Shown here in pieces: positions 12,276 to 34,041 of a DNA stretch of 40,162 bases. Positions within the stretch are counted from its first letter, which is position 1; each line of letters begins with the position of its first letter. The translations under genes were made by a program, and so were the position numbers. Source of the stretch: a virus. A model generated the notes under the pieces. That model did no database searches, had not been told where the DNA came from, and saw only the letters and a program-made list of their open reading frames with translations. The stretch lies in the IMG/VR virus record IMGVR_UViG_3300020165_000003. One strand, 5' to 3'.

Positions 12276-12986
12276 TTTACTCAAGGCTGCTTCTTGTCTT
12301 TGTTGAGCAGACTCTACCTTGTTCTTTTGAGCGAGATAACTCATCTCAGGTAAAACCTCAGCCATACCCAACATATATATTTCTGAATATCGAGTTATAT
12401 CTTCGTGTGCTAACAGCCTGACTATAGAGTACCAATACCATTGAGAATGGAACTGAGCACCAGCCTCTCCAGTGTCCTCGACCTTTTCTTCTACCTCTTC
12501 GGTTTCCTCATTCACTTCGTAGAAAACACCTTTAAATTTTTTAAACAACATCTCTTCTCTGTCACCTAGGTATCTTTGCAACACATTATACAGGTCTTGA
12601 ACAGGTGAGTTTAATAGTTTTTCACGGTGTTGTTGTTCTTCAATAGGGTTTACGTTGTCGAACTCGGTGTGGTGCTTTGGACGAAGCACTAATTCTAGTA
12701 TAGCCAGCTCCATTTCCTCATCAGATTTGAATTTAGACTTTCCCGTAAGTATTTGCTCTAGCATTATGAACTGACCTAAGACCAAATCCATTACCCCTTT
12801 GTTGACCTTAAAATTCTCCTTTATGTAAGGCGTTATACTCTTGCTTTCTTTTATAGGATAAGTCGATTGCATCCTTTCAATCAAATCAAGCTTGTCTAAG
12901 GAGCTAACATTTTCAATTGATACCTTACCATCATCGTCAATAGATATTCCATTACAGACGCTTATATGCTCTTTAAACGTTATCAT
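12264..12986 (-). CDS. Hypothetical protein, 240 aa (start moved to ATG 12986)
   Basis: ATGA overlap with the terL stop at 12983-12986. The ORF-track start at 13028 would overlap terL by 46 nt. Confidence 0.45.
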   Translation of the reverse strand: MITFKEHISVCNGISIDDDGKVSIENVSSLDKLDLIERMQSTYPIKESKSITPYIKENFKVNKGVMDLVLGQFIMLEQILTGKSKFKSDEEMELAILELVLRPKHHTEFDNVNPIEEQQHREKLLNSPVQDLYNVLQRYLGDREEMLFKKFKGVFYEVNEETEEVEEKVEDTGEAGAQFHSQWYWYSIVRLLAHEDITRYSEIYMLGMAEVLPEMSYLAQKNKVESAQQRQEAALSKIVN

Positions 12987-14230
12987 AGGAACATTGTTAC
13001 ACCCCCGTCTTGTTCTTCTCTTGCACAATAAGCTGCAATCGCTAGGCTCATCACCATATCATCATGCTTGCCCTCTGTGTTTGAAAACTGAAGGTTACCG
13101 GTTATTGGATTTCGCTTAGACTTAAAGTCGTAAAGCTCTTTTGTTAGCTCATCGTTAATTGGGATTGTAATCTCCCTATCCTCAAAAAGCTTGACCAAGT
13201 TCTTAACCATCTCTGGTTTGCTCTTGGTTGTGGTTAGGAAAGGTATCATCTTGTAGAGTCTATCGTCATCTGTGATGTCATCAAACAGCAAGTCATTGTT
13301 ATTAACCTCGAAGTACGCAGCGGCTAACTTCTCATCGTGCTTCAAGTAGAATCCCTTTATCCTGTCCTTGAACTCATCGCTATCCATGTTCTCCTCTTTG
13401 TAATTGAATCGGTCTATATCTATCACATCGTAGTTCTCCGTGATTGCCGTGAGTACAGTGTAATCCTGAGCCACACCGATATCCATTCCTATGTACAGTC
13501 TCTCGTACTCCTTCTCCGTTGTGGACACACACTCCTCGATGTTGCTGAAAAGAGTGCTCGAACTTACAGGCTTGCATAGAAACTCCTGGTCGAACTGTGA
13601 TCGTGTCATCGACTTCTTGATACCGAGTACAGTTTTAGAAACCTTGCTGTCTTTTAAGTCTAGGTAAGTCCGCTTAATGCTTCTTACTTGTTCCCAGTTG
13701 GCTTCTACCTGTCCATCCTTGTACCATTCGTAAAACCAATTTGGGCCGTTGAATGTCGAGGCCGCACATACATTTCCGTTGGTACGGGTTACCATAGGTA
13801 ATAGTACCTCGTTTATAAAATCCAACTTCATGTATGCTGCTTCATCCAAGTAGATGAAGTCTAGTGTTGCACCACGCAAGTTATCACCACTGTCAGCAGA
13901 CCTAAACTTAATAAAGCTGCCATTGTAAAAATAAAGTTCGTTTGCCTTTCTGTCATAACGCTTGACTATTTGATTCCACAACTCCTGGTGGTTACTGAAC
14001 ATCGCTTCAATGTCCTTCATCACTTTGTTTGCTTGATCTTGTATTGGGCTTACCCAGAACATTCGGTGTTTAGGGTTGTTTAATGCCCTCATCACACAAT
14101 CGTTCTGCATGAAGAAAGTCTTACCCGTCTGCCTTCCCGCAACGATACAGCTTATGAAAGGCTGGTGATCGTGTACGAGCTGATTAAAATCCTTTTGCGG
14201 CTCAGTAGGTTTGTATAATTTAATCTGCAT
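12983..14230 (-). CDS. terL: Terminase large subunit
   Basis: Walker A VAGRQTGKT, Walker B-like IYLDEAAYM, nuclease-half motifs GMDIGVAQDYTVL and GKHDDMVMSLAIA. Confidence 0.9.
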   Translation of the reverse strand: MQIKLYKPTEPQKDFNQLVHDHQPFISCIVAGRQTGKTFFMQNDCVMRALNNPKHRMFWVSPIQDQANKVMKDIEAMFSNHQELWNQIVKRYDRKANELYFYNGSFIKFRSADSGDNLRGATLDFIYLDEAAYMKLDFINEVLLPMVTRTNGNVCAASTFNGPNWFYEWYKDGQVEANWEQVRSIKRTYLDLKDSKVSKTVLGIKKSMTRSQFDQEFLCKPVSSSTLFSNIEECVSTTEKEYERLYIGMDIGVAQDYTVLTAITENYDVIDIDRFNYKEENMDSDEFKDRIKGFYLKHDEKLAAAYFEVNNNDLLFDDITDDDRLYKMIPFLTTTKSKPEMVKNLVKLFEDREITIPINDELTKELYDFKSKRNPITGNLQFSNTEGKHDDMVMSLAIAAYCAREEQDGGVTMFL

Positions 14231-14672
14231 CTATATCCAAAAAGTCTTGTTGGTCGGTAGGCTCTGTTAAATCTATTGTGGCAGTGATATCAATCTTTGT
14301 CTGCTCGACCTTAGTCGGAGCCTTATACCCTTGCATATCGTTTATAATCCTAATCGAATCCATAGCAGCCTTCATATCCCCTTCCGAAAGAGCCAAGTCT
14401 CTAATCTTAATCAGTGCTGCTAGGTTAGTTCCCTTCGCAGCCTCTATAGACTTCATCTCTGAGTTAGCCATAGCCATTAACTCCCTGTGAAATGCCGTGC
14501 CTTGATTCCTACGATCACGATAATAACTTGTGTAGTTTAAATCACGAGCTATCTTGGATGTTGCATCGAAGCCTTCCTCATGTACTCTTTTAAGGAACTC
14601 TTCCTGTAGGGTGGTTAGTGAGCTACCGCTACCCTTAACGACATCCCCTTTCTTGTTTCTCTTACTTGGCAT
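14220..14672 (-). CDS. terS: Terminase small subunit candidate, 150 aa (start at MPSKRNKKG)
   Basis: Immediately upstream of terL and overlapping it. Basic N-terminus with HTH-like segment, acidic C-terminus. The longer 14759 start would overlap the upstream ORF by about 100 nt. Confidence 0.5.
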   Translation of the reverse strand: MPSKRNKKGDVVKGSGSSLTTLQEEFLKRVHEEGFDATSKIARDLNYTSYYRDRRNQGTAFHRELMAMANSEMKSIEAAKGTNLAALIKIRDLALSEGDMKAAMDSIRIINDMQGYKAPTKVEQTKIDITATIDLTEPTDQQDFLDIDAD

Positions 14673-14952
14673 ACTTCTTCTGTGTGTAGATAGGCATATT
14701 GTAAATCCCCATCTTGTTAGTGAACACGATACTGTCATAGGTCGGGGCAGACTCATCAAAGTGATACCACTTCCATAAGTTAACCTTTACCCTCTGGATA
14801 CAACTTCCGCAAAAGGTCTTAGGGTTTTCCACGCTCCTAACATACCTACTCTTTCCGTACAGAGAATTGTGTAGCTTAAACATCTTATCCTTCATCTCAC
14901 CCTTGGGTAATTTATTAACGGTTAAGTAAACAAACAAGTCCTCGTAGTCCAT
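14662..14952 (-). CDS. Hypothetical protein, first gene of the minus-strand arm, 96 aa
   Basis: ORF with CGSC motif. No recognised family. Confidence 0.4.
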   Translation of the reverse strand: MDYEDLFVYLTVNKLPKGEMKDKMFKLHNSLYGKSRYVRSVENPKTFCGSCIQRVKVNLWKWYHFDESAPTYDSIVFTNKMGIYNMPIYTQKKYAK

Positions 14953-15020
14953 AGCAATCTGTGTTTAAATCAATGTACAAGATAATGAATTTTTCCATTC
15001 ATCACACTAAACAACCCCTT

Positions 15021-15110
15021 TATTATAATAAACTAGTATTATACTTTTACTTCCATAGTAAAAGTATTATAATAATAGTATTACTTTACTCTTCTACTAT
15101 TATTATAATA
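15021..15110. promoter_or_regulatory. Three copies of the perfect 10-bp palindrome TATTATAATA (15021-30, 15065-74, 15101-10); operator or bidirectional -10-like cluster
   Basis: Read directly. Each copy is self-complementary, contains TATAAT on both strands and is followed by a (TA)GTAT(T)A extension. Lies in the 408-bp divergent intergenic region. Confidence 0.55.
15041..15067. repeat. Inverted repeat ATACTTTTAC-N7-GTAAAAGTAT between palindrome copies 1 and 2
   Basis: 10-bp perfect arms (15041-50 / 15058-67), loop TTCCATA. Confidence 0.8.
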
Positions 15111-15360
15111 GTATAAGGAGATGACTCTTCCCCCAAGTGGAGAATTTTCCAAGTCCAGCATTCAAAATCCCCCGCCCCCTCCGAGCAACTAGCGTAATAA
15201 AATCCTGGCAGATTTTCGGTCAGTCGCTTTAAAAATTTTTGGGGAAGTATTTGCAGAAAAAAATTTCGATATTTTGCGAATTCTTTTTAGGTATTTGTTT
15301 GGTAGTTCGTAGAATATTTGTATATTGAGGTATTAATAACAACAACAAAACAACGCTATT

Positions 15361-15567
15361 ATGAAAACACAGTTAGAAAGGAAAGCAGAATTAATTTACG
15401 AATTTCGCCAAGTTACACAGCAACAAAATTCGAGGATTATCGATGTTCAAGCCAAGTTAATAGAGGGCGAATACAAAAGCGAGGTTTTCGACATGTTACA
15501 AAATATTATCTCAGATAATTTCAAATTATGGGATGAGCTTTTTGAATTAGAAAACAAAATCAGATAA
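15361..15567 (+). CDS. Early hypothetical protein, 68 aa
   Basis: First plus-strand ORF, A-rich leader, followed by its own terminator. Confidence 0.55.
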   Translation: MKTQLERKAELIYEFRQVTQQQNSRIIDVQAKLIEGEYKSEVFDMLQNIISDNFKLWDELFELENKIR

Positions 15568-15579
15568 AATCACGGCTTT

Positions 15580-15610
15580 GGGGGGTTGCCGTTTTAACCC
15601 CCCGTTTTTT
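15580..15610 (+). terminator. Intrinsic terminator
   Basis: GGGGGGTT (15580-87) / AACCCCCC (15596-603), then G + TTTTTT. Confidence 0.75.
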
Positions 15611-15632
15611 ATTATTTTATAATTTATTACAC

Positions 15633-15893
15633 ATGGAAAAGATTCAAATTTTAAATTCGAAAGGAAACAATGCAACAACCTTGCAAGTTTTCACTGCTGA
15701 AATTTACAAAGAAGTTATGCCTATTTTGCAGAAATTCGCTGAGGCTGAAAGCCTTGAAGTTGGGGGCGTAACTTTTGAAAAAGATGAGGCTACCATTAAA
15801 AGAGTGGACACAATTATGGCAAAGTTTGCTACCGATTGGCATTCGAAGGTGGGTAAAGCTAAAGTCAAAACAATAGTTGAATTTATCGACTAA
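15633..15893 (+). CDS. Early hypothetical protein, 86 aa
   Basis: ORF bounded by terminators on both sides. Confidence 0.55.
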   Translation: MEKIQILNSKGNNATTLQVFTAEIYKEVMPILQKFAEAESLEVGGVTFEKDEATIKRVDTIMAKFATDWHSKVGKAKVKTIVEFID

Positions 15894-15901
15894 TTCTATA
15901 T

Positions 15902-15932
15902 GGGGGGCGATCCATTCGCTCCCCTTTTTTTT
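15902..15932 (+). terminator. Intrinsic terminator
   Basis: GGGGGGCGA / TCGCTCCCC stem (one G-U pair), loop TCCAT, then T8. Confidence 0.75.
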
Positions 15933-15954
15933 ATTCATATAAAACCTGGATTTT

Positions 15955-16203
15955 ATGAAAATTATTTGCAACGATATCGATTTTATTACTGATGAAATAA
16001 TCATAATAAAAAAGAAGGTTTACCGCAATGGGCAGACCAAGAGAACACAAAAGAACAGAGCACCTTACGTTAAAAGAACCCAAGCAGAACTTGATAGAGA
16101 ACGTGAGGACAGACTTTATAGAAACAATTGGAAATTATCGAACATAGGTAGCAGTGCTAAAAGTCAAAGAGTGGCTGACCTTAATTTAAAATACGGATTA
16201 TGA
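15955..16203 (+). CDS. Basic hypothetical protein, 82 aa
   Basis: ORF with K/R-rich centre. Confidence 0.45.
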   Translation: MKIICNDIDFITDEIIIIKKKVYRNGQTKRTQKNRAPYVKRTQAELDREREDRLYRNNWKLSNIGSSAKSQRVADLNLKYGL

Positions 16204-16301
16204 TATCTTTAGAACTTATCGCCTTATTATTTATAGGCACATCATTTGGAATTATAGGAATAGTATTAACTGAATTAGACAAAAGAACTAATGGAAAATA
16301 A
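16200..16301 (+). CDS. Small single-pass membrane protein, 33 aa
   Basis: Hand-translated MISLELIALLFIGTSFGIIGIVLTELDKRTNGK. ATGA overlap with the upstream stop. Confidence 0.35.
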   Translation: MISLELIALLFIGTSFGIIGIVLTELDKRTNGK

Positions 16302-16464
16302 GAACAAGATTGATGCTCTTTACTTGGAGATAGATAGAGCATTTTTAGCTGGATTTTCATCTATAGCTATTTACAATATGTACTCAGAAAATGTGAAAGC
16401 ACAGCAGTATATAATCGAATGGCATTTCGATGAAGAACTTGAAATGGCTTTTGCCGATAATTAG
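16291..16464 (+). CDS. Hypothetical protein, 57 aa
   Basis: Hand-translated MENKNKIDALYLEIDRAF...EMAFADN. Overlaps the previous ORF by 11 nt. Confidence 0.35.
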   Translation: MENKNKIDALYLEIDRAFLAGFSSIAIYNMYSENVKAQQYIIEWHFDEELEMAFADN

Positions 16465-16465
16465 A

Positions 16466-16493
16466 AACCTTTAAAAACAAATATCGTGAAAAA
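16466..16493 (+). repeat. Junction-element variant AACCTTTAA-N11-GTG, containing the 23-nt repeat TTAAAAACAAATATCGTGAAAAA (16471-93)
   Basis: Shares AACCTTTAA with the 25.3-26.2 kb elements. The 23-mer recurs at 16898-16920 with one change (G to A in the start codon). Confidence 0.7.
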
Positions 16494-16641
16494 CAAAAAA
16501 GAAACTACGCTAAAAGTGTGTGACTTATTACACACAATAAGCCTTCTGCAAAAAGCAGTTACTGAAGGAAATGAAATCCTTGTGAAAGCTTGGATAGAAG
16601 AAGCAGAAGTTGATATTGATAAAATAAAAAATTCTTTATAA
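16486..16641 (+). CDS. Hypothetical protein, 51 aa, GTG start
   Basis: VKNKKETTLKVCDLLHTISLL...KIKNSL. Start supported only by the junction-element architecture. Confidence 0.3.
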   Translation: MKNKKETTLKVCDLLHTISLLQKAVTEGNEILVKAWIEEAEVDIDKIKNSL

Positions 16642-16643
16642 TT

Positions 16644-16901
16644 ATGGAAAGAAATACATTGATCAAAAACCTTGAAAAGAAAGGTATATCCGTAGTAGGT
16701 TATAGCGAAAATTTTAATGGTGTAGGAGGTGGTATTTGGATATCAGCAGAAGAACCCGAAAACGAATACTTCTTTAATTACTATGCAGAAAGTAGGGGTT
16801 ATGATTTAGGAGTAAGAACCACGCTAATTGAATTTCTTGGTAAGCGAGGTTGGTATGCTGAGTGGAACGATCCAGGCACAATTTTTATATGGACAGATTA
16901 A
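16644..16901 (+). CDS. Hypothetical protein, 85 aa
   Basis: ORF with GGGIW..GWYAEWNDPGT motifs. Family not recognised. Confidence 0.5.
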   Translation: MERNTLIKNLEKKGISVVGYSENFNGVGGGIWISAEEPENEYFFNYYAESRGYDLGVRTTLIEFLGKRGWYAEWNDPGTIFIWTD

Positions 16902-16920
16902 AAACAAATATCATGAAAAA
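16898..16920 (+). repeat. Second copy of the 23-nt repeat (TTAAAAACAAATATCATGAAAAA), opening a 10-codon mini-ORF
   Basis: ATG 16913 gives MKKGFHIIMK-stop. A terminator lies about 30 nt downstream. Confidence 0.7.
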
Positions 16921-16974
16921 AGGATTTCACATTATAATGAAATAATGAAAGTTTACTTACAAATAGTTTTAAAG

Positions 16975-17004
16975 AAACCCTTGAGATATCTTGAGGGTTT
17001 TTTT
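16975..17004 (+). terminator. Intrinsic terminator
   Basis: AAACCCTTGAG / CTTGAGGGTTT stem with two G-U pairs, 4-nt loop, then T-run to 17004. Confidence 0.65.
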
Positions 17005-17100
17005 ATGGCTACAATTAAAGTTGTATATGTCCGTAAATTTTCGTATATTCACTATGTTAATAAAGGGGTTGATAACCCTATAATCTAAATTATTTTTAAA

Positions 17101-17289
17101 ATGAAAACAGCAGAATTTAGCACAAAAGTGCAAATCACTCTGGAAATCATTGGTCGGATAGATGCCCGAACATATTCAGAAAAAGATTTATTAGATGATT
17201 GGATTTATTGTCAAGTTACTGACCATAATTCCGAATGGAAAAAGGTAGAAATACTTAAAGAAGAACTAACTGATTTTGATACAATTTAA
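17101..17289 (+). CDS. Hypothetical protein, 62 aa
   Basis: ORF with A-rich leader. Confidence 0.5.
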   Translation: MKTAEFSTKVQITLEIIGRIDARTYSEKDLLDDWIYCQVTDHNSEWKKVEILKEELTDFDTI

Positions 17290-17290
17290 T

Positions 17291-17929
17291 ATGAAGTTAA
17301 AAGAATTAAAAGAGTCGGTAGGTTCATTAAGTGCGCCTTCAAAAATGCCTTGTAGCGGTTATTCGATTCCCGCAAAAGAATGCAAGGTAGGTTCTCGTTT
17401 AATAGACGTAGAAAATAGCACTTGTAGTGGGTGCTATGCTTTAAAAGGAAGATATGTATTTCCCAACGTGCAGAACGCAATGTATAATCGTTATAATTCC
17501 CTAATGAATGATATAGATTTATGGGAAAAAAACATGACAACTTACATAGGGAAATATCGCAAAGGCGATAAGAGATATTTTAGATGGCACGATAGCGGTG
17601 ATCTTCAAAGTATCAATCACTTATCTGCAATAAACAACATAGCTTTATCTTTAGATGGTGTGCAATTTTGGTTGCCAACAAGAGAGATAAAAATTGTAAG
17701 AACTTGGCAGAAACTATATGGTGAATTTGCGCCTAACTTAATAGTAAGAATATCTGCACATATGAACGATGCACAACCTAACCACAATATTACGGGTTAT
17801 GCTTCAGGCGTTATCGATAAAAACACAGAATTAAATGGAAGAAAATGTCCCGCTCCTAATCAAGATAATGAGTGCAAAGATTGCAGAGCGTGTTGGACTG
17901 CTGAGACAGTTCTTTATCACAAGCACTAA
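17291..17929 (+). CDS. Cys-rich phage protein (Gp88 / CxxCYA-type), about 212 aa
   Basis: PCSGYSIP..C..STCSGCYALKGRY, RWHDSGD, C-terminal CPAPNQDNECKDCRACW. The ORF-track start at 17276 is a TTG; ATG 17291 preferred. Confidence 0.4.
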   Translation: MKLKELKESVGSLSAPSKMPCSGYSIPAKECKVGSRLIDVENSTCSGCYALKGRYVFPNVQNAMYNRYNSLMNDIDLWEKNMTTYIGKYRKGDKRYFRWHDSGDLQSINHLSAINNIALSLDGVQFWLPTREIKIVRTWQKLYGEFAPNLIVRISAHMNDAQPNHNITGYASGVIDKNTELNGRKCPAPNQDNECKDCRACWTAETVLYHKH

Positions 17930-18013
17930 CATAAAAGTAGTCGATAAATTAGACATCGAAGACTTAGAATTTGAATCAATTTTTAATCATAAATAATAAC
18001 TAAACAATTCATT

Positions 18014-18211
18014 ATGACTACCAATCAATTCGCTAAGAAATTAGCAGTAATCGCAAACGAAAGTGGATTCTTGTATAAGGATATGCTTGACCAAGACACG
18101 TTGTTTGAACTTGCAGATTCTATCGCAAATCTTTTGATAGAAGCGAACAAAGATAACTCAGTATCAACGAAGACATTGTTGGAATTTAACCACGTTTTTT
18201 CAGTAAAATAA
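18014..18211 (+). CDS. Hypothetical protein, 65 aa
   Basis: ORF. Confidence 0.5.
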   Translation: MTTNQFAKKLAVIANESGFLYKDMLDQDTLFELADSIANLLIEANKDNSVSTKTLLEFNHVFSVK

Positions 18212-18216
18212 AGACC

Positions 18217-18396
18217 ATGATAGACTACAGAATTTCATATGTTAATAGTTATGGAGAGGAGCGCATTGCTCCTTTCATTTTTAGCAACATTGCAGAAGCA
18301 AGACAAACAAGAAAATTGTATCAAGAAAAAGGATACCATTCGATAAGTATTCTTGCGTATAGAACGGAAGACAATAACCCTATAAACAACAAATAA
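18217..18396 (+). CDS. Hypothetical protein, 59 aa
   Basis: Hand-translated MIDYRISYVNSYGEERIAPF...NNPINNK. Fills the gap between listed ORFs. Confidence 0.4.
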   Translation: MIDYRISYVNSYGEERIAPFIFSNIAEARQTRKLYQEKGYHSISILAYRTEDNNPINNK

Positions 18397-18397
18397 A

Positions 18398-18658
18398 ATG
18401 GGAGCAACTTTAGAATTTAAAGAGATAGAATCAAAAGATTTTTTAACGGCAGTTAGAAAACTTCAAGATGATTCTTATTCAAGCGATCCGTATAGCGGAG
18501 ACTTTAATACTTGTCACGAGTTCTACAATTACACATCAAAATTTGATGATGTAGACCAATTCAGTGATTGGGTAGAAGAAGATGGAGGAAAGAGAGAAGC
18601 GTATTCCTATAGATATGGAGATGGTCTTTGGCTCTTTGGCGGATGGTGCGCCTGTTAA
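18398..18658 (+). CDS. Acidic hypothetical protein, 86 aa
   Basis: ORF, D/E/Y-rich, C-terminal GGWCAC. Confidence 0.5.
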   Translation: MGATLEFKEIESKDFLTAVRKLQDDSYSSDPYSGDFNTCHEFYNYTSKFDDVDQFSDWVEEDGGKREAYSYRYGDGLWLFGGWCAC

Positions 18659-18690
18659 TCAAGAATTATTAATCTTATAATTTATATATT

Positions 18691-21972: not shown

Positions 21973-21993
21973 GGGGAGGCTCTATGCCTCCCC
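21973..21993 (+). terminator. Terminator-like hairpin
   Basis: GGGGAGGC-TCTAT-GCCTCCCC, followed by T/A-rich sequence. Confidence 0.6.
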
Positions 21994-22050
21994 TTATAAA
22001 TTATTATATTATTATTATTTATTATTATTATATTAATATATATTATAATA
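21994..22050. promoter_or_regulatory. 57-bp pure A+T tract ending in a fourth copy of TATTATAATA (22041-22050)
   Basis: No G or C between 21994 and 22050. (TTA)n-like. The palindrome ends 3 nt before ATG 22054. Confidence 0.6.
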
Positions 22051-22053
22051 CCT

Positions 22054-22821
22054 ATGACACTAACTGAAAAAAAATTGAAGGAGTTCTTTCCGACTGACAA
22101 TAGGTTCATCTTCTATGTAGCCAAGAGGTACGGAATGAGCCTGTACACTGATGACATAGTGAACGATGCGAGATACCACTCCATAGTCAACCTAACGAGG
22201 TATCTCAAGAAGTATGGGTGGGACTTCGAGTCCGAGGGAGAAGTTGTCTCAGCGGTCATGTATTCGATCCGTTATGGGATACTCCACGCTTATGGCGAGT
22301 ACAAGAAGTTGAACGAAAGGAACTTGGATATAAGACTCGCATCCGATTTTATCTTTGATGATGGCGATGAACTATACACCACCTACACTAAGAACCTTGC
22401 CGTTGAGGATGAAGAACAAGGTGGTTTAGTTTTCCTGTATAAGAATGCCGTAGAACATACGCTTACGGAATTAGAACGTAAGGTCTTGGATATGATGATT
22501 GATGGTTTCAATCTAGTAGAGATTGATAAGTGTTTAGAGTTAAAACAAGGACAGTCTTACTTAGCTAAAAAAAGAATACAAACGAGATTTAAGAAAGCAA
22601 TTAAATTAGAAAACAGAAATGAGAAACAACAAGAGTTTACCAGTGCTACTAACAAAGAACAAGTACAAAAGAATTTGCAATTTGTACGAGAGGATAACTG
22701 GTATAAATCCGTTATCGAAGACGAGAAGAAGAGAGGTCGTTATATCAAGGCAATGTCTTTTCTACATCCTGAGAAGGAAGTACAATATGAAGTATCAAAT
22801 GGTGGGGTGGTTAGCAGATAA
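22054..22821 (+). CDS. ECF/sigma-70-like transcription factor, 255 aa; last ~65 codons overlap the next gene
   Basis: Region-2-like FYVAKRYG..DDIVNDARYHSIVNL and region-4-like LTELERKVLDMMIDGFNLVEIDKCLELKQGQSYLAKKRI. Confidence 0.45.
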   Translation: MTLTEKKLKEFFPTDNRFIFYVAKRYGMSLYTDDIVNDARYHSIVNLTRYLKKYGWDFESEGEVVSAVMYSIRYGILHAYGEYKKLNERNLDIRLASDFIFDDGDELYTTYTKNLAVEDEEQGGLVFLYKNAVEHTLTELERKVLDMMIDGFNLVEIDKCLELKQGQSYLAKKRIQTRFKKAIKLENRNEKQQEFTSATNKEQVQKNLQFVREDNWYKSVIEDEKKRGRYIKAMSFLHPEKEVQYEVSNGGVVSR

Positions 22822-23086
22822 GAACCACGCAACGGTGATCCACTCAGTTAAGGTCATGAAGGATATGCTTGAAATAAAGGATGGTATGACGCTTAGTTCT
22901 ATTGAGGCATGGGAGAGGGTCTTCAATATGGAGTTCGGCTCGGAGGGTGGACTTAAACACGCATTCGAGATGCAGTTGGACAAACTCGTTATAGAGAGTG
23001 GTCTAGAACATAGCATTGTGGAAAGGCTGTTAACAAATAGAGCAGAAGATATTAGAAAATTACAACAGGATAGTGTATCTTTGTAG
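22619..23086 (+). CDS. DnaA domain-IV-like HTH DNA-binding protein, 155 aa
   Basis: LSKTRRREVVISRQCLFYILRR..MVGWLADKNHATVIHSVKVMKDML parallels E. coli DnaA LSKRRSRSVARPRQ..GRDHTTVLHACRKIE. Confidence 0.6.
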   Translation: MRNNKSLPVLLTKNKYKRICNLYERITGINPLSKTRRREVVISRQCLFYILRRKYNMKYQMVGWLADKNHATVIHSVKVMKDMLEIKDGMTLSSIEAWERVFNMEFGSEGGLKHAFEMQLDKLVIESGLEHSIVERLLTNRAEDIRKLQQDSVSL

Positions 23087-23116: not shown

Positions 23117-23647
23117 ATGAGCAAGTATCAGTTTAAGACTACCAACATTAAGGGTAAGCAGTATGTTGAAGTCAATGAAAGAATCAAGTTCTTCCGATTG
23201 GAAGAGAAGTACAATGGTTGGTCTTTGAGTACCGAGGTGGTGCACTTAGATGAGAACTCTTGTGTTATCAGAGCGACAATCTGTAACTCAGATGGTATGG
23301 TGATCGCTACAGGATTTGCCCAAGAGGACAAGTCTTCATCCTACATTAACAAGACAAGCTATGTGGAAAATTGTGAGACTAGTGCCTGGGGCCGTGCTTT
23401 GGCTAATCTCGGTATTGGTATTGACACTTCTATTGCGAGTTCAAACGAGGTGGCCATTGCTATCGCAAAACAAAACAGTAAACCTCAAGCTTCGGCTCCG
23501 GAAACTACTTCGCTGAAAGAACTTACTGATGATGTAAAGAATCGTATGATTGAAGCAGTCAAGGATGGTAAGAAGGAAGCCGTAGAGAATGCGCTTGGCG
23601 GATACAAGGTTACTGCTAAGGTTAAGAAAGAAATTCTATCTGTCTAA
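23117..23647 (+). CDS. Rad52/Sak-like single-strand annealing protein candidate, 176 aa
   Basis: KQYVEVNERIKFFR.., ENCETSAWGRALANLGIG resembles the Rad52-type xSDAxKRAxxxxGIG signature. Two genes upstream of the exonuclease gene (23832..24590). Confidence 0.4.
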   Translation: MSKYQFKTTNIKGKQYVEVNERIKFFRLEEKYNGWSLSTEVVHLDENSCVIRATICNSDGMVIATGFAQEDKSSSYINKTSYVENCETSAWGRALANLGIGIDTSIASSNEVAIAIAKQNSKPQASAPETTSLKELTDDVKNRMIEAVKDGKKEAVENALGGYKVTAKVKKEILSV

Positions 23648-23832: not shown

Positions 23833-24590
23833 TGAACGCAATAGAGAAATTTAAGGATGATGAAGCATACTATGCTGACAAGGATTACTTATCCAATAGT
23901 ATGTTAAAGCTTTTAAGACAGTCTCCTACTAAGTTTCATTTAATGAGACAAGGTAAGTGGTCTTATCCCTCAGCATCTTTCTTTGATGTGGGTACAGCAC
24001 TTCATGCTTTATTTCTCGAAGGCGTTGATAAGACGATCCTTTGGAGCGGAACAAGAAGAGGTAATGATTATAAAGAGTTTAAGGCTACACACCAAGATAA
24101 GTTAGTCTTACCTAAAAAAGATTATGACCTTGTTCACGCAATGCACGATAAACTGATGAGGCTCTCGGAAGTTAGTGAATTGATGGGAGATAGTTTCGAG
24201 CCAGAAGTTCCTGGTATTATGAACTTAGTAACTGAATCTTTTGCTGAATTAAAATTTAAAGGCAAAGCAGATGCTCTAGTTAATAAGGATGGAAGAAAAT
24301 ATCTCGTAGACCTAAAGACAACTGCTAAGAGTTTAGATGACTTTAAGAAAGGTGCGAGGTGGATGATGTATAACCAACAAGCTTACTTATACAGTAGGAT
24401 TTTTGGTGTTGATGATTTTTATTTCTTGGTTATAGAGAAAGAGTTTCCTTACGAAGTAGGAATATTCAGGGCGGGTGTTGACTTCCTACTTAGTGGTCAG
24501 CACGAATTTGAAACATCCGTGAGCTTATACGAGGAACTCTTTCTTAATCAAGATTTTAACCCCTATAATGTGCGCTATGGCGAAATTTAA
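23832..24590 (+). CDS. PD-(D/E)XK exonuclease (RecE / DUF3799-like), 252 aa
   Basis: GTALHALFLEG.., GKADALVNKDGRKYLVDLKTT, NQQAYLY, FLVIEKEFPYEVGIF. Confidence 0.6.
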   Translation: MNAIEKFKDDEAYYADKDYLSNSMLKLLRQSPTKFHLMRQGKWSYPSASFFDVGTALHALFLEGVDKTILWSGTRRGNDYKEFKATHQDKLVLPKKDYDLVHAMHDKLMRLSEVSELMGDSFEPEVPGIMNLVTESFAELKFKGKADALVNKDGRKYLVDLKTTAKSLDDFKKGARWMMYNQQAYLYSRIFGVDDFYFLVIEKEFPYEVGIFRAGVDFLLSGQHEFETSVSLYEELFLNQDFNPYNVRYGEI

Positions 24591-24975
24591 TAAGTACGAG
24601 AATGTGTGTCTGCACGCTTGTTCATCCGTAACAGGTGTGAGTATTGTAGACATAATGAGCAATAATAAAAAGCAAGAGGCTGTAATGGCTAGGGCTTTGT
24701 CTTGCTCGGTATTAAAATTCTGTGGCTTTGGAATCCGTGAGATTTCAAGAATCACGAACACCGATCCTAAAGGAGTGTCTGTATATATATCCGGGCACGA
24801 TGATAGAATGGATGATGTTAGATACAAAAGGTCTTATGCAAAGGCTGTATCTTTTATTCATACATATGAAGAGTTTTCTGATGAAGGCTTGAATGATAAG
24901 GTTCAAATATTATATGAGAACCTTATGGAATTAAATGCAAAGTACGATCACCTAGAACAATTATTAATAAAGTAA
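24568..24975 (+). CDS. Second DnaA domain-IV-like HTH protein candidate, 135 aa
   Basis: VTGVSIVDIMSNNKKQEAVMARALSCSVLKF.GFGIREISRIT. Weaker than 22619..23086. Confidence 0.35.
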   Translation: MCAMAKFNKYENVCLHACSSVTGVSIVDIMSNNKKQEAVMARALSCSVLKFCGFGIREISRITNTDPKGVSVYISGHDDRMDDVRYKRSYAKAVSFIHTYEEFSDEGLNDKVQILYENLMELNAKYDHLEQLLIK

Positions 24976-31677: not shown

Positions 31678-32195
31678 GATTCTTCACACTCATCTTCAAT
31701 GTTTGCTGAATAAGGGTAGTAAACAGAACTGCTATAAATTTCATCTTCATTAAACAAGTCTCCATCACAATCAGAAGCATCGATTATAGCTTTTAGACTT
31801 GTTGTAGACTTTACAAATTCTGCAATTCTCTTGTTTATGTATGCGACTTTACCTTCTATCTGAGAAGACAGTGTATCTATGACGTATTGGTCTTGAGATG
31901 ATTCTTCGTGCTTAGTGTTCGCTGCTTGCGTTCTAAGCATAGTAATCGTTGCTTTGGCCGAGTACATAGCCAGAGAGTATTTGATGAGCTTAAACAGGCT
32001 TATTTCGTCTGCTGTTAGCGTTTGATTGCTTACACCAGATTCCATATGCTCGTACAAACAAGTACCTAATAAATCTTGTATAGATGTGTACTGCTCTAAC
32101 TGTATGATAGACAATAGCGCAGCACGATCCAATCTCTTAGGAAGAGGAAAGTTTTTGTAAAGAAAATTATCATCTATAAATATTACCTCAACCAT
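31674..32195 (-). CDS. Head-tail connector/adaptor candidate, 173 aa (start at MVEVIFIDD)
   Basis: Immediately downstream of the portal. ATG 32195 follows the portal stop, whereas the 32234 start would overlap the portal. Confidence 0.3.
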   Translation of the reverse strand: MVEVIFIDDNFLYKNFPLPKRLDRAALLSIIQLEQYTSIQDLLGTCLYEHMESGVSNQTLTADEISLFKLIKYSLAMYSAKATITMLRTQAANTKHEESSQDQYVIDTLSSQIEGKVAYINKRIAEFVKSTTSLKAIIDASDCDGDLFNEDEIYSSSVYYPYSANIEDECEES

Positions 32196-33807: not shown

Positions 33808-34041
33808 TTAGCTAGCGTCTCTAAAAGTTCCGGTTTTCATGTCTATTTCAACAGAACCGTATTTTTCCTCTAGACTCTTACTAAGTTTTTCCCAAGATTC
33901 TTTTGCGTTAAGAAGCTCAGAAGTTGCTCTACTACTTACAATAGCAGCTTCAACAATTGCGTTTTCCGTGTTACGAATAAGAGAGACAATAGCCTCCATT
34001 GTTTCGTGTTCTTTTTTTGTTAGTTTTTTAGCCTTAGCCAT
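33808..34041 (-). CDS. Helical hypothetical protein, 77 aa
   Basis: ORF. Confidence 0.45.
   Translation of the reverse strand: MAKAKKLTKKEHETMEAIVSLIRNTENAIVEAAIVSSRATSELLNAKESWEKLSKSLEEKYGSVEIDMKTGTFRDAS

What the first reader, a model, noticed from the sequence alone, without database searches (positions are those of the whole stretch)
15021..15110. Perfect 10-bp palindrome TATTATAATA: three copies in the divergent control region, a fourth at the sigma-like gene
Copies lie at 15021-30, 15065-74 and 15101-10 (spacing 44 and 36 bp), inside the 408-bp region between the late arm (ATG 14952, minus) and the early arm (ATG 15361, plus). A fourth exact copy at 22041-50 ends 3 nt before the ATG of the ECF-like sigma gene. 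I saw no other copy by eye. The site is self-complementary, as expected for a dimeric HTH operator. It also contains TATAAT on both strands. The layout resembles a three-operator switch, yet no repressor or integrase is evident. The DnaA-IV-like HTH proteins or a host factor could be the binder.
Basis: partly seen in the sequence, partly recalled or inferred. Interest (0 to 1): 0.62.

Follow-up and report, generated by a model that had tools for sequence, protein, structure and literature searches.

The report
Conserved palindromic protein-binding sites in phage
The four TATTATAATA palindromes are real and conserved, and are most likely docking sites for a phage-encoded DNA-binding protein that controls two operons in a large family of uncultured marine phages; this is an ordinary kind of switch, with an unusual candidate binder.

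Summary
The window holds four exact copies, at the stated coordinates, against 0.2 expected. Six complete related genomes hold 30 copies against 0.87 expected, and all 30 are intergenic.

Related IMG/VR phages keep the same layout: 2-5 copies in the divergent region upstream of terS/TerL, arranged around a long hairpin whose stem changes by compensatory substitutions. They also keep a copy at the head of the operon that begins with a DnaA-domain-IV-like HTH gene.

The strongest evidence comes from five clades. Each carries a different AT-rich palindrome (TATTATAATA; TAATATATTA/AGTATACT; TAGTATACTA; CTATATAG; TATACTNAGTATA). In each clade the same palindrome occurs at both loci. Two-fold symmetry is kept while the sequence changes, which points to a clade-specific dimeric binder rather than to bare -10 boxes.

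The sigma-like gene is a clade-A insertion between the site and the DnaA-IV-like gene. The conserved neighbour is therefore the DnaA-IV-like HTH protein (window 22619-23086), which is the best candidate binder. That assignment is an inference.

My best reading is an operator array with autoregulation. An iteron-type origin using the same binder is the main rival. Binding, transcription starts and origin activity remain untested, and the tool for finding sequencing runs was closed. This scan has no earlier report of this element on other DNA.

The parts
15021..15030 (.). Site S3: exact TATTATAATA, nearest the late (terS) arm
   Evidence: The aligned position is conserved in relatives, usually followed by AGGGG/AAGGGG.
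15065..15074 (.). Site S2: exact TATTATAATA, forming the distal part of the right hairpin arm
   Evidence: (I3).
15101..15110 (.). Site S1: exact TATTATAATA, nearest the early arm. With S2 it forms a 16-nt perfect inverted repeat (15065-15080 / 15095-15110).
   Evidence: (I2).
15034..15074 (.). Long inverted repeat (hairpin): arms 15034-15051 and 15057-15074, loop TCCAT. The left arm carries a degenerate copy of the site (TATTATAC, 15037-15044).
   Evidence: I3. Folded as single-stranded DNA the region gives z = -4.0. Across 51 related loci there are 24 distinct stem/loop versions, all keeping the pairing.
22041..22050 (.). Solitary exact site, 3 nt before ATG 22054, at the head of the sigma-like / DnaA-IV-like operon
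   Evidence: The same placement, with a gap of -1 to +6 nt, is seen in 16 clade-A phages counted individually.
21973..21993 (+). GC-rich hairpin (GGGGAGGC-tctat-GCCTCCCC) that ends the upstream methyltransferase operon. A 57-nt A/T-only tract (21994-22050) follows and ends in the site.
   Evidence: Equivalent hairpins with different stems occur in relatives.
22619..23086 (+). DnaA-domain-IV-like HTH protein (155 aa) with two extra C-terminal helices. It is the best candidate binder.
   Evidence: Pfam Bac_DnaA_C scores 38.1 bits, above the cut-off. The PDB profile hit to 1j1v has E = 2.5e-7. The AF2 model has pLDDT 86.6, and the top Foldseek hits are DnaA domain IV with TM 0.69-0.71. It is the conserved gene downstream of the second site cluster: Pfam Bac_DnaA_C above cut-off in clades A, B and D, identified by sequence pattern only in C and E.
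22054..22821 (+). Sigma-70-family-like protein (sigma-H/ECF-like, 255 aa), a clade-A-specific gene inserted between the site and the DnaA-IV-like gene
   Evidence: The PDB profile hit to sigma-H 3mzy has E = 7.6e-5. Foldseek hits are mostly sigma factors, but on a poor model of pLDDT 58.6. The gene is absent in clades B-E and in L158 and L164.
24568..24975 (+). Second, weaker DnaA-IV-like paralogue (135 aa) with a C-terminal coiled-coil-like tail. It is an alternative binder.
   Evidence: Pfam Bac_DnaA_C is sub-threshold at E = 0.04. BLASTP against 22619-23086 gives E = 0.002. No match was found in G007 or G011, which still have site arrays.
14971..15002 (-). Conserved element before the first late-arm gene: inverted repeat ATGAAT..ATTCAT (14985-15002), then CTTGTACATTG (14971-14981). 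It resembles the candidate late motif ATTGTAAATTAA noted elsewhere in this window.
   Evidence: The alignment of 17 relatives shows ATTCA and TTGTA.ATT nearly invariant. The same element is present in distant clades.
14662..14952 (-). First gene of the late arm (96 aa, FCGSC motif), followed by the probable terS (within 14220-14759) and terL (12983-14230)
15169..15222 (-). Conserved block TGACCG-N31-CTCGGAG(C)GGGGGG, read on the minus strand, on the early side of the sites. Its function is unknown.
   Evidence: Present at fixed spacing in every clade examined. No Rfam match.

Best explanation
The TATTATAATA palindromes are cis-acting binding sites (operators) for a phage-encoded, two-fold symmetric (dimeric) sequence-specific DNA-binding protein. 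The most likely binder is the DnaA-domain-IV-like HTH protein encoded at 22619-23086.

The protein would act at two loci. The first is the head of its own operon: site 22041-50, behind a terminator-like hairpin and an A/T-only tract and a few nucleotides before the first start codon. Binding there would give autoregulation of the replication/recombination module. The second is the only divergent intergenic region. There, 3-5 sites surround a conserved hairpin just upstream of the conserved promoter-like element of the terS operon. Occupancy there would couple shut-off of early transcription and/or turn-on of the terS/late arm to accumulation of the regulator.

Shown: the sites are real, over-represented, intergenic and conserved. 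Different clades carry different palindromes. In each clade the same palindrome occurs at both loci. A DnaA-IV-like gene is the constant neighbour.

Inferred: which protein binds, that it binds as a dimer, and the sign and direction of regulation.
For: (1) Enrichment: 4 copies against 0.21 expected in the window. Six clade-A genomes hold 30 against 0.87 expected, all intergenic.

(2) Conservation: the exact 10-mer is kept in relatives whose TerL is 77-99% identical, in 2-5 copies, with the 36 + 44-48 bp frame retained. Meanwhile the adjacent early genes have no detectable homologues.

(3) When a substitution occurs at site S2, the 10-mer is regenerated 3 nt away (TATTATTATAATA versus TATTATAATAATA).

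(4) Clade-specific replacement keeps the symmetry: TAATATATTA plus (T)AGTATACT(A) in clade B, (A)TAGTATACTA(T) in C, CTATATAG in D and TATACTNAGTATA in E. A pair of overlapping -10 hexamers would not constrain positions 1, 3, 8 and 10 to stay complementary.

(5) Two-locus concerted change: in every clade the same palindrome sits both in the terS-proximal region and just upstream of the DnaA-IV-like gene. This holds for WIN and G001-G004; G007, G009, G010 and G011; and G013, G014 and G016.

(6) Arrays spaced 14-18 bp apart in G011 are too dense to be separate promoters.

(7) The candidate binder has the DnaA domain IV fold plus C-terminal helices. In G007 this tail gives sub-threshold leucine-zipper or coiled-coil matches.

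(8) No sigma-70-type promoter pointing towards ORF 22054 uses the site.
Against: No binding data exist.

The HTH recognition helix (NHATVIH / DHATVIHA) is almost the same in clades with different palindromes, so I see no residue-to-base covariation.

DnaA domain IV is known to bind an asymmetric 9-mer as a monomer (established knowledge; PDB 1j1v).

Within clade A the DnaA-IV-like proteins are only 22-92% identical, yet the site is invariant.

All genes are linked on one genome, so clade-wise co-variation does not single out one protein. I found no mosaic genome that would separate the candidates.

G005 has the cluster but no site at its sigma-like/DnaA-IV operon.

The self-complementary hairpin between the sites is not explained by protein binding alone.

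In clade A the 3-5 nt gap to the ATG is close to the geometry of a leaderless promoter using the TATAAT inside the site.
Confidence: 0.5

Rival explanations
1. Iteron-type replication origin. The palindromes are initiator-binding sites and the DnaA-IV-like protein is the phage replication initiator. The cluster in the divergent region, and/or the array beside the initiator gene, is the origin. The copy in front of the initiator operon serves autorepression. This matches lambda O at ori-lambda and plasmid Rep proteins at iterons plus an inverted-repeat operator.
For: The candidate binder has the DNA-binding fold of the bacterial initiator. Its operon carries recombination and replication genes: a PD-(D/E)XK exonuclease, an SSB-tip protein and a DnaB-like helicase. 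No other initiator was recognised. Some clades have arrays of 5-11 repeats. A 57-bp A/T-only tract lies next to the site at 21994-22050. The cumulative GC skew has its minimum at about 15 kb. The hairpin could be a cruciform or unwinding element.
Against: The GC-skew turn coincides with the switch of gene orientation, so it is uninformative. Two arrays per genome would mean two origins, or one origin plus one operator. In clade A the site lies within 6 nt of a start codon, which is typical of a transcription or translation control site. The main cluster lies 7 kb from the replication genes but directly upstream of the terS promoter-like element. Spacing is irregular and not helically phased (36, 44-48, 15, 18, 10 bp).
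Confidence: 0.22
2. Promoter elements. Each palindrome is a pair of back-to-back -10 boxes (TATAAT on both strands), read by the host RNA polymerase or by a phage sigma factor (the sigma-like ORF 22054 or the gp55-like ORF 29394). This would give bidirectional promoters in the control region and a leaderless transcript for ORF 22054.
For: A perfect TATAAT is present on both strands (direct reading). Variants in other clades keep TAnnnT-like hexamers (TATACT, TATATT). In clade A the gap between site and ATG is mostly 3-5 nt. That leaves 4-6 nt between the hexamer and the A of ATG, close to leaderless geometry. Genes in this phage lack Shine-Dalgarno sequences. The sigma-like gene and TATTATAATA are both clade-A features.
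Against: Symmetry is conserved at positions outside and between the hexamers, and is restored after clade-specific changes. No conserved -35 lies at 16-18 bp, and no promoter towards 22054 was found by the consensus scan. The site-to-ATG gap is -1, 0 or 1 nt in some genes and 8-95 nt in other clades. Arrays 14-18 bp apart are too dense. The same architecture exists in clades without the sigma-like gene. Sigma-like proteins are only 27-32% identical among phages that share the invariant site.
Confidence: 0.13
3. Packaging signal. The repeats are terminase small-subunit binding sites (cosB or pac-like), lying between a cleavage site (perhaps the conserved G-run block) and terS, as the R sites do in lambda cosB.
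For: The cluster lies directly upstream of the terS/terL genes. There are three or more repeated sites plus a bendable or hairpin element. An invariant GC-rich block lies at fixed spacing next to them.
Against: The same palindrome recurs at the DnaA-IV-like operon 4-7 kb away in every clade, which a packaging site does not explain. Complete related contigs break at arbitrary places or carry assembly-type terminal repeats, and none ends at this region.
Confidence: 0.04
4. Sites for a host protein, such as a nucleoid-associated or global regulator. The clade-specific palindromes would then reflect different hosts.
For: The site is invariant while every candidate phage binder diverges strongly.
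Against: A 1.7-Mb MAG that holds a related phage contig has only 4 copies of the 10-mer, fewer than of its reversed control (11), although the host link is weak. The constant linkage of the second locus to an HTH gene fits a phage-encoded autoregulated binder better.
Confidence: 0.08

Closest known systems
Phage phi29 protein p4 sites in the central early/late control region (from established knowledge)
   Same: It is a lytic phage with a single divergent region between the early and late arms. Several inverted-repeat sites there bind one small dimeric phage regulator, which represses early promoters and activates the late one. The regulator is encoded in an early operon.
   Different: No p4 homologue was detected. 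The sites here are 10-bp perfect palindromes, not CTTTTT-N15-AAAATG. A second locus lies at the regulator's own operon. A conserved hairpin is embedded among the sites. Function was not tested.
Lambda OR/OL operators with CI/Cro
   Same: There are three clustered palindromic sites in a divergent control region, and specificity differs between related phages, as with immunity groups.
   Different: No CI/Cro-type gene flanks the sites, and no integrase or lysogeny module was found. Sites are 10 bp and 36-48 bp apart, rather than 17 bp sites separated by 3-7 bp. Copy number is variable.
Iteron origins with autoregulated initiators (lambda O/ori-lambda; P1 RepA, F RepE, pPS10 RepA)
   Same: A phage or plasmid DNA-binding protein has repeated dyad-symmetric sites in one array, plus a site in front of its own gene. 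AT-rich DNA lies alongside.
   Different: Origin activity is unknown. The main array is 7 kb from the candidate initiator gene and abuts the packaging genes. The spacing is irregular.
DnaA domain IV bound to the DnaA box (PDB 1j1v)
   Same: The candidate binder shares the fold and the DHxTV recognition-helix motif.
   Different: DnaA binds an asymmetric 9-mer (TTATCCACA) as a monomer and carries AAA+ and other domains. The phage protein is the DNA-binding domain plus about 55 residues of extra helices, and the sites are symmetric and contain only A/T.

Membership tests
Operator array of a phage-encoded dimeric transcription regulator | Repeated, two-fold symmetric sites, far above chance and confined to intergenic control DNA | tested here: met
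Operator array of a phage-encoded dimeric transcription regulator | Site sequence co-varies with phage lineage while symmetry and position are kept | tested here: met
   Five clades and two loci each.
Operator array of a phage-encoded dimeric transcription regulator | A cognate DNA-binding gene linked to a site (autoregulation layout) | tested here: met
   A DnaA-IV-like HTH gene follows the second site cluster in all clades examined.
Operator array of a phage-encoded dimeric transcription regulator | Specific binding of the protein to the sites, and an effect on transcription | not testable with these tools
   This needs EMSA or footprinting and reporter or TSS data.
Lambda-type CI/Cro immunity switch | CI- and Cro-type HTH genes flanking the operators, with a lysogeny module | tested here: not met
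   The flanking genes are an unconserved 68-aa ORF and a terS-side 96-aa ORF with no HTH family hit. No integrase was found.
Sigma-70-type promoter (-10 box) | TATAAT with a -35 at 16-18 bp, or a fixed distance to transcript or gene starts | tested here: not met
   TATAAT is present, but only weak and unconserved -35 matches were found. No promoter points towards 22054. The site-to-ATG gap varies from -1 to 95 nt across genes and clades.
Iteron-type replication origin | Repeated initiator sites next to an AT-rich unwinding element and an initiator gene | tested here: inconclusive
   Repeats, an A/T tract and a DnaA-fold protein are present. GC skew is confounded by gene orientation. Origin function was not testable.
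cosB/pac terminase recognition site | A single locus per genome, adjacent to terS, with genome ends nearby | tested here: not met
   A second locus exists in every clade. Contig ends are not at the region.
DnaA domain IV (Bac_DnaA_C) for the candidate binder 22619-23086 | Pfam PF08299 above the gathering score, and fold similarity to solved DnaA domain IV | tested here: met
   Pfam scores 38.1 bits against a cut-off of 31.5. The profile hit to 1j1v has E = 2.5e-7. Foldseek gives probability 1.00 and TM 0.69-0.71 to 1j1v and 3pvp.
Sigma-70 family for ORF 22054-22821 | Recognisable region 2 and region 4 | tested here: inconclusive
   No Pfam hit. The profile hit to sigma-H 3mzy has E = 7.6e-5 over residues 63-189. 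Foldseek hits are mostly sigma factors, but the model has pLDDT 58.6 and the best E-value is 5e-3.

The most novel reading that the evidence does not exclude
Stand-alone DnaA-domain-IV proteins with a C-terminal dimerising tail could form an uncharacterised family of master regulators, or initiators, in an abundant lineage of strictly lytic marine siphovirus-like phages. In this reading they bind short all-A/T palindromes. Their specificity has diversified into at least five protein/site 'specificity groups', analogous to immunity groups but without lysogeny. They would couple expression of the replication/recombination operon to the start of the packaging/late arm through a site-hairpin-site module.
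Probability: 0.3. Interest if true: 0.62.

Novelty: new member of a known kind. Interest (0 to 1): 0.47.

Why it matters
These phages form a large, uncultured marine group: 208 TerL relatives in IMG/VR, with no close isolate in GenBank phage records. Nothing is known about how they time gene expression.

The palindromes mark the two control points that every clade keeps. They also name a short list of proteins to test. If the DnaA-fold protein is the binder, it would be a new use of the bacterial initiator's DNA-binding domain as a phage regulator. Searches of the open literature for 'DnaA domain IV' or 'Bac_DnaA_C' together with 'phage' found no described case.

The five natural site/protein variants offer a ready-made specificity-swap experiment. 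Otherwise this is a standard operator or iteron array.

Tried and rejected
- DNA search of GenBank phages with 13000-17000 found no match. TerL finds only relatives at 27% identity or less, and the sigma-like protein finds none, so no annotated relative could be used.
- No whole genome is held for the window.
- The window has no tRNA and no Rfam family, and none in the control region at E <= 1.
- The Bacteroidota -7 motif TAnnTTTG is not enriched (48 against 47 expected) and is absent from the control region. It therefore gave no early promoter and no host call.
- One genome-contig scan returned a related contig binned in a 'Proteobacteria' MAG. The 10-mer is not common in that MAG. This is too weak to assign a host.
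- I looked for residue-to-site covariation in the HTH recognition helix across clades and found none.
I used the conserved downstream gene 23117-23647 as an anchor instead.
- The profile search for the sigma-like protein in clades B-D found nothing. Gene order then showed the gene is simply absent there.
- The AF2 model of the sigma-like protein was poor, at pLDDT 58.6.
- A literature search for the 10-mer returned only unrelated papers.
- I considered and rejected an R-M or methyltransferase target, because the site has no C or G for the two C5-methyltransferase-like genes. I also rejected an RNA hairpin formed by the 10-mer alone, which is too short to fold.

Full report
**Observation.** TATTATAATA occurs exactly four times in the 40,162-base window, at 15021, 15065, 15101 and 22041. 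Shuffles give 0.21 expected, and none reaches four. The stated spacings (44 and 36 bp), the 408-bp intergenic gap between ATG 14952 (-) and ATG 15361 (+), and the 3-nt gap to ATG 22054 are all correct. It is the only 10-bp palindrome present three or more times in the window. It is also the clear outlier among all 32 A/T-only 10-bp palindromes.

**Setting.** The window looks like a complete siphovirus-like phage genome.
- A late arm on the minus strand runs 14952 -> 1 and 40162 -> 30812. It carries terL at 12983-14230, a tape-measure gene, a portal gene and an endolysin gene.
- An early arm on the plus strand runs 15361 -> 30741. It carries methyltransferases, a sigma-like gene, a DnaA-domain-IV-like HTH gene, a PD-(D/E)XK exonuclease and a DnaB-like helicase.
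- The three clustered sites lie in the only divergent junction.
- I found no integrase and no CI/Cro-type protein.
- No annotated isolate is close.
- Genes lack Shine-Dalgarno sequences.
- The host is unresolved. A related contig is binned in a 'Proteobacteria' MAG. The Bacteroidota -7 motif is not enriched.

**Conservation.** TerL finds 208 relatives in IMG/VR.
- In relatives with 77-99% TerL identity, the exact 10-mer is present in 2-5 copies about 1 kb upstream of terL. The 36 + 44-48 bp frame is kept, and extra copies sit 10-18 bp away.
- The window plus five complete relatives (G001-G005) hold 30 exact copies against 0.87 expected. Every copy is intergenic.
- The first 3.3 kb of early genes next to the sites have no detectable homologues among these same genomes, so the sites are far more conserved than their neighbours.
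- At site S2, a T-to-A change in some relatives shifts the exact 10-mer by 3 nt rather than destroying it.

**Anatomy of the control region**. Reading from the early side to the late side, the order is:
1. An invariant block, TGACCG-N31-CTCGGAG(C)GGGGGG.
2. An optional site.
3. Site S1.
4. A 14-26 bp segment.
5. Site S2, which forms the outer part of one arm of an 11-17 bp perfect inverted repeat with a 4-7 nt loop.
6. A degenerate copy of the site on the other arm.
7. Site S3, followed by a G-rich run.
8. The inverted repeat ATGAAT..ATTCA.
9. TTGTA(T/C)ATT.
10. The ATG of the first late-arm gene.

The inner stem of the hairpin differs among relatives (CTTTTAC, CCTTTAC, CTCTCTC, GACCTCT, GAATACTC, GATACCC, CTCCCC and others). 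Pairing is always kept: 51 loci show 24 distinct stem/loop versions. The window's region folds well as single-stranded DNA, with z = -4.0. Hairpin formation itself is therefore selected, whether as DNA cruciform or as RNA. Protein binding to the 10-mers alone does not explain this.

**The fourth copy.**
- In the window, G002 and G003, the site lies 3-5 nt before the ATG of the orthologue of ORF 22054.
- In G001 and G004 it lies 53-95 nt upstream, with a degenerate copy next to the ATG.
- Anchoring on the conserved gene 23117-23647 brought in 70 more loci.
- Counting the window, G003, L158 and 13 further loci, 16 clade-A phages were counted individually, and in these the site ends -1 to +6 nt from the first ATG of the operon. 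It follows a GC-rich hairpin and a conserved A/T tract of about 40 nt.
- In L158 and L164 the sigma-like gene is missing, and the site abuts the ATG of the DnaA-IV-like gene.
- G005 keeps the cluster but has no site at this operon.

**Other clades: the decisive comparison.** Relatives with about 72-74% TerL identity keep the whole architecture but use other palindromes:
- Clade B: TAATATATTA with (T)AGTATACT(A).
- Clade C: (A)TAGTATACTA(T).
- Clade D: CTATATAG, six copies.
- Clade E: TATACTNAGTATA.
- One further group has an asymmetric TAGTAACTAT unit placed in inverted orientation around the hairpin.

In complete genomes of each clade, the same palindrome occurs at a second place 4-5.5 kb into the early arm. 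That place is directly upstream of a gene for a DnaA-domain-IV-like protein (G007, G009, G010 and G011; G013, G014 and G016). These clades have no sigma-like gene there.

Three conclusions follow.
- (a) Symmetry is preserved while the sequence changes.
- (b) The two loci change together.
- (c) The constant partner is the DnaA-IV-like gene, and the sigma-like gene is a clade-A insertion behind the site.

**The proteins.**
- ORF 22619-23086 matches Pfam Bac_DnaA_C above threshold, and so do its counterparts in G007 and G011.
- The family profile hits E. coli DnaA domain IV (1j1v) at E = 2.5e-7.
- A confident AF2 model (pLDDT 86.6) superposes on DnaA domain IV structures with TM 0.69-0.71. It adds two long C-terminal helices.
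- The G007 tail gives sub-threshold coiled-coil or leucine-zipper matches.
- ORF 24568-24975 is a weaker paralogue.
- ORF 22054-22821 is sigma-70-family-like. Its profile hit to sigma-H 3mzy has E = 7.6e-5, and its Foldseek list is dominated by sigma factors, but the model is poor.

**Interpretation.** The data fit binding sites for a clade-specific, two-fold symmetric, phage-encoded protein that acts at its own operon and at the early/late junction. This is an operator array with autoregulation, closest in logic to phi29 p4. The DnaA-IV-like protein is the leading candidate, by linkage only.

Several points count against it.
- Its recognition helix barely differs between clades that have different sites.
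- DnaA domain IV is known as a monomeric binder of an asymmetric box.
- All genes are co-inherited, so clade-wise co-variation cannot single out one protein.

The main rival keeps the same binder but makes the arrays an iteron-type origin. GC skew cannot decide, because gene orientation flips at the same point.

Bare promoters are less likely, for five reasons.
- Symmetry is conserved beyond the hexamers.
- There is no conserved -35.
- Distances to start codons vary from -1 to 95 nt.
- Arrays occur at 14-18 bp spacing.
- The architecture persists without the sigma-like gene.

The 3-5 nt gap in clade A is, however, near leaderless geometry, so a promoter that overlaps the operator remains possible.

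A packaging signal does not explain the second locus. The conserved G-run block beside the sites remains unexplained and could be such a signal.

**Limits.** There are no binding, TSS, read-end or origin data. The host is unknown. The open literature I could search holds nothing on phage DnaA-domain-IV-only regulators or on this 10-mer in phages.

**Verdict.** This is a real, conserved cis-regulatory element of a known general kind (a phage operator or iteron array). It is a new member, found in an uncharacterised marine phage family, with a testable and somewhat unusual candidate binder.

Noticed in passing
window 15169-15222 (minus strand); also L003-L073 upstream of the site clusters: An invariant block TGACCG-N31-CTC(G/T)GA(G/C)CGGGGGG lies on the early side of the palindromes. 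It is conserved at fixed spacing in every clade, even where the palindromes differ. In some clades the second element itself contains TGACCG. Function is unknown: a cos/pac cleavage site, a promoter and a leader are all possible. There is no Rfam match.
   Followed up: partly
window 15075-15100; L011, L014, L017, L027 and others: The 14-26 bp segment between sites S1 and S2 occurs in both orientations among clade-A relatives: GAGTAAAGTAATAC in the window, L003 and L006, against its reverse complement GTCTTACTTTAC in L011, L014 and L027. This looks as if the segment was inverted between the two palindromes. In L004 and L005 a palindrome, TTAGAGTACTCTAA, takes its place.
   Followed up: partly
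window 22054-23086; L127-L172: The sigma-like ORF and the DnaA-IV-like ORF overlap by about 160-200 nt in different frames in many clade-A relatives, not only in the window. The sigma-like gene is missing in clades B-E and in L158 and L164.
   Followed up: partly
window 15361-18660: The first 3.3 kb of the early arm (about 11 small ORFs) has essentially no detectable homologue in five complete relatives that share 79-87% TerL identity; the single weak exception is a 30% match of ORF 16644-16901 in G002. This is a hypervariable early-gene region directly beside a strongly conserved control region.
   Followed up: partly
G001:9991-10039 (L082) and G003:29869 (L099); window 33808-34041: In two relatives the exact palindrome sits 0-1 nt before the ATG of a small coiled-coil late-arm gene (G001 has a second copy 39 bp away). 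By position and by the similar N-termini of the encoded proteins, the window's counterpart appears to be ORF 33808-34041, although tblastn found no match for it in G001-G005; its upstream region has TATATTTGTTGTA and TATATTTTGT instead.
   Followed up: partly
window 14220-14759: The TTG-started 179-aa ORF probably begins at an internal ATG (MPSKRNKKGDVV...). It looks like the small terminase subunit, with an HTH-like N-terminal part. The 96-aa ORF before it (14662-14952) has a conserved FCGSC motif and is present in all clades.
   Followed up: no
L110 (JAHZJR010000146.1): An 11.9-kb contig with 79% TerL identity is binned in a MAG labelled 'Proteobacteria bacterium'. Another note of this scan guessed Flavobacteriia as host. 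The lack of Shine-Dalgarno sequences fits either a Bacteroidota host or another host that uses few such sequences.
   Followed up: partly
G005, upstream of its sigma-like gene (near 32026, minus strand): In G005 the sigma-like gene is preceded by the cassette-junction element (...TTTAACACCAAAGAGAG-ATG) described in another finding of this window, instead of the palindrome.
   Followed up: no
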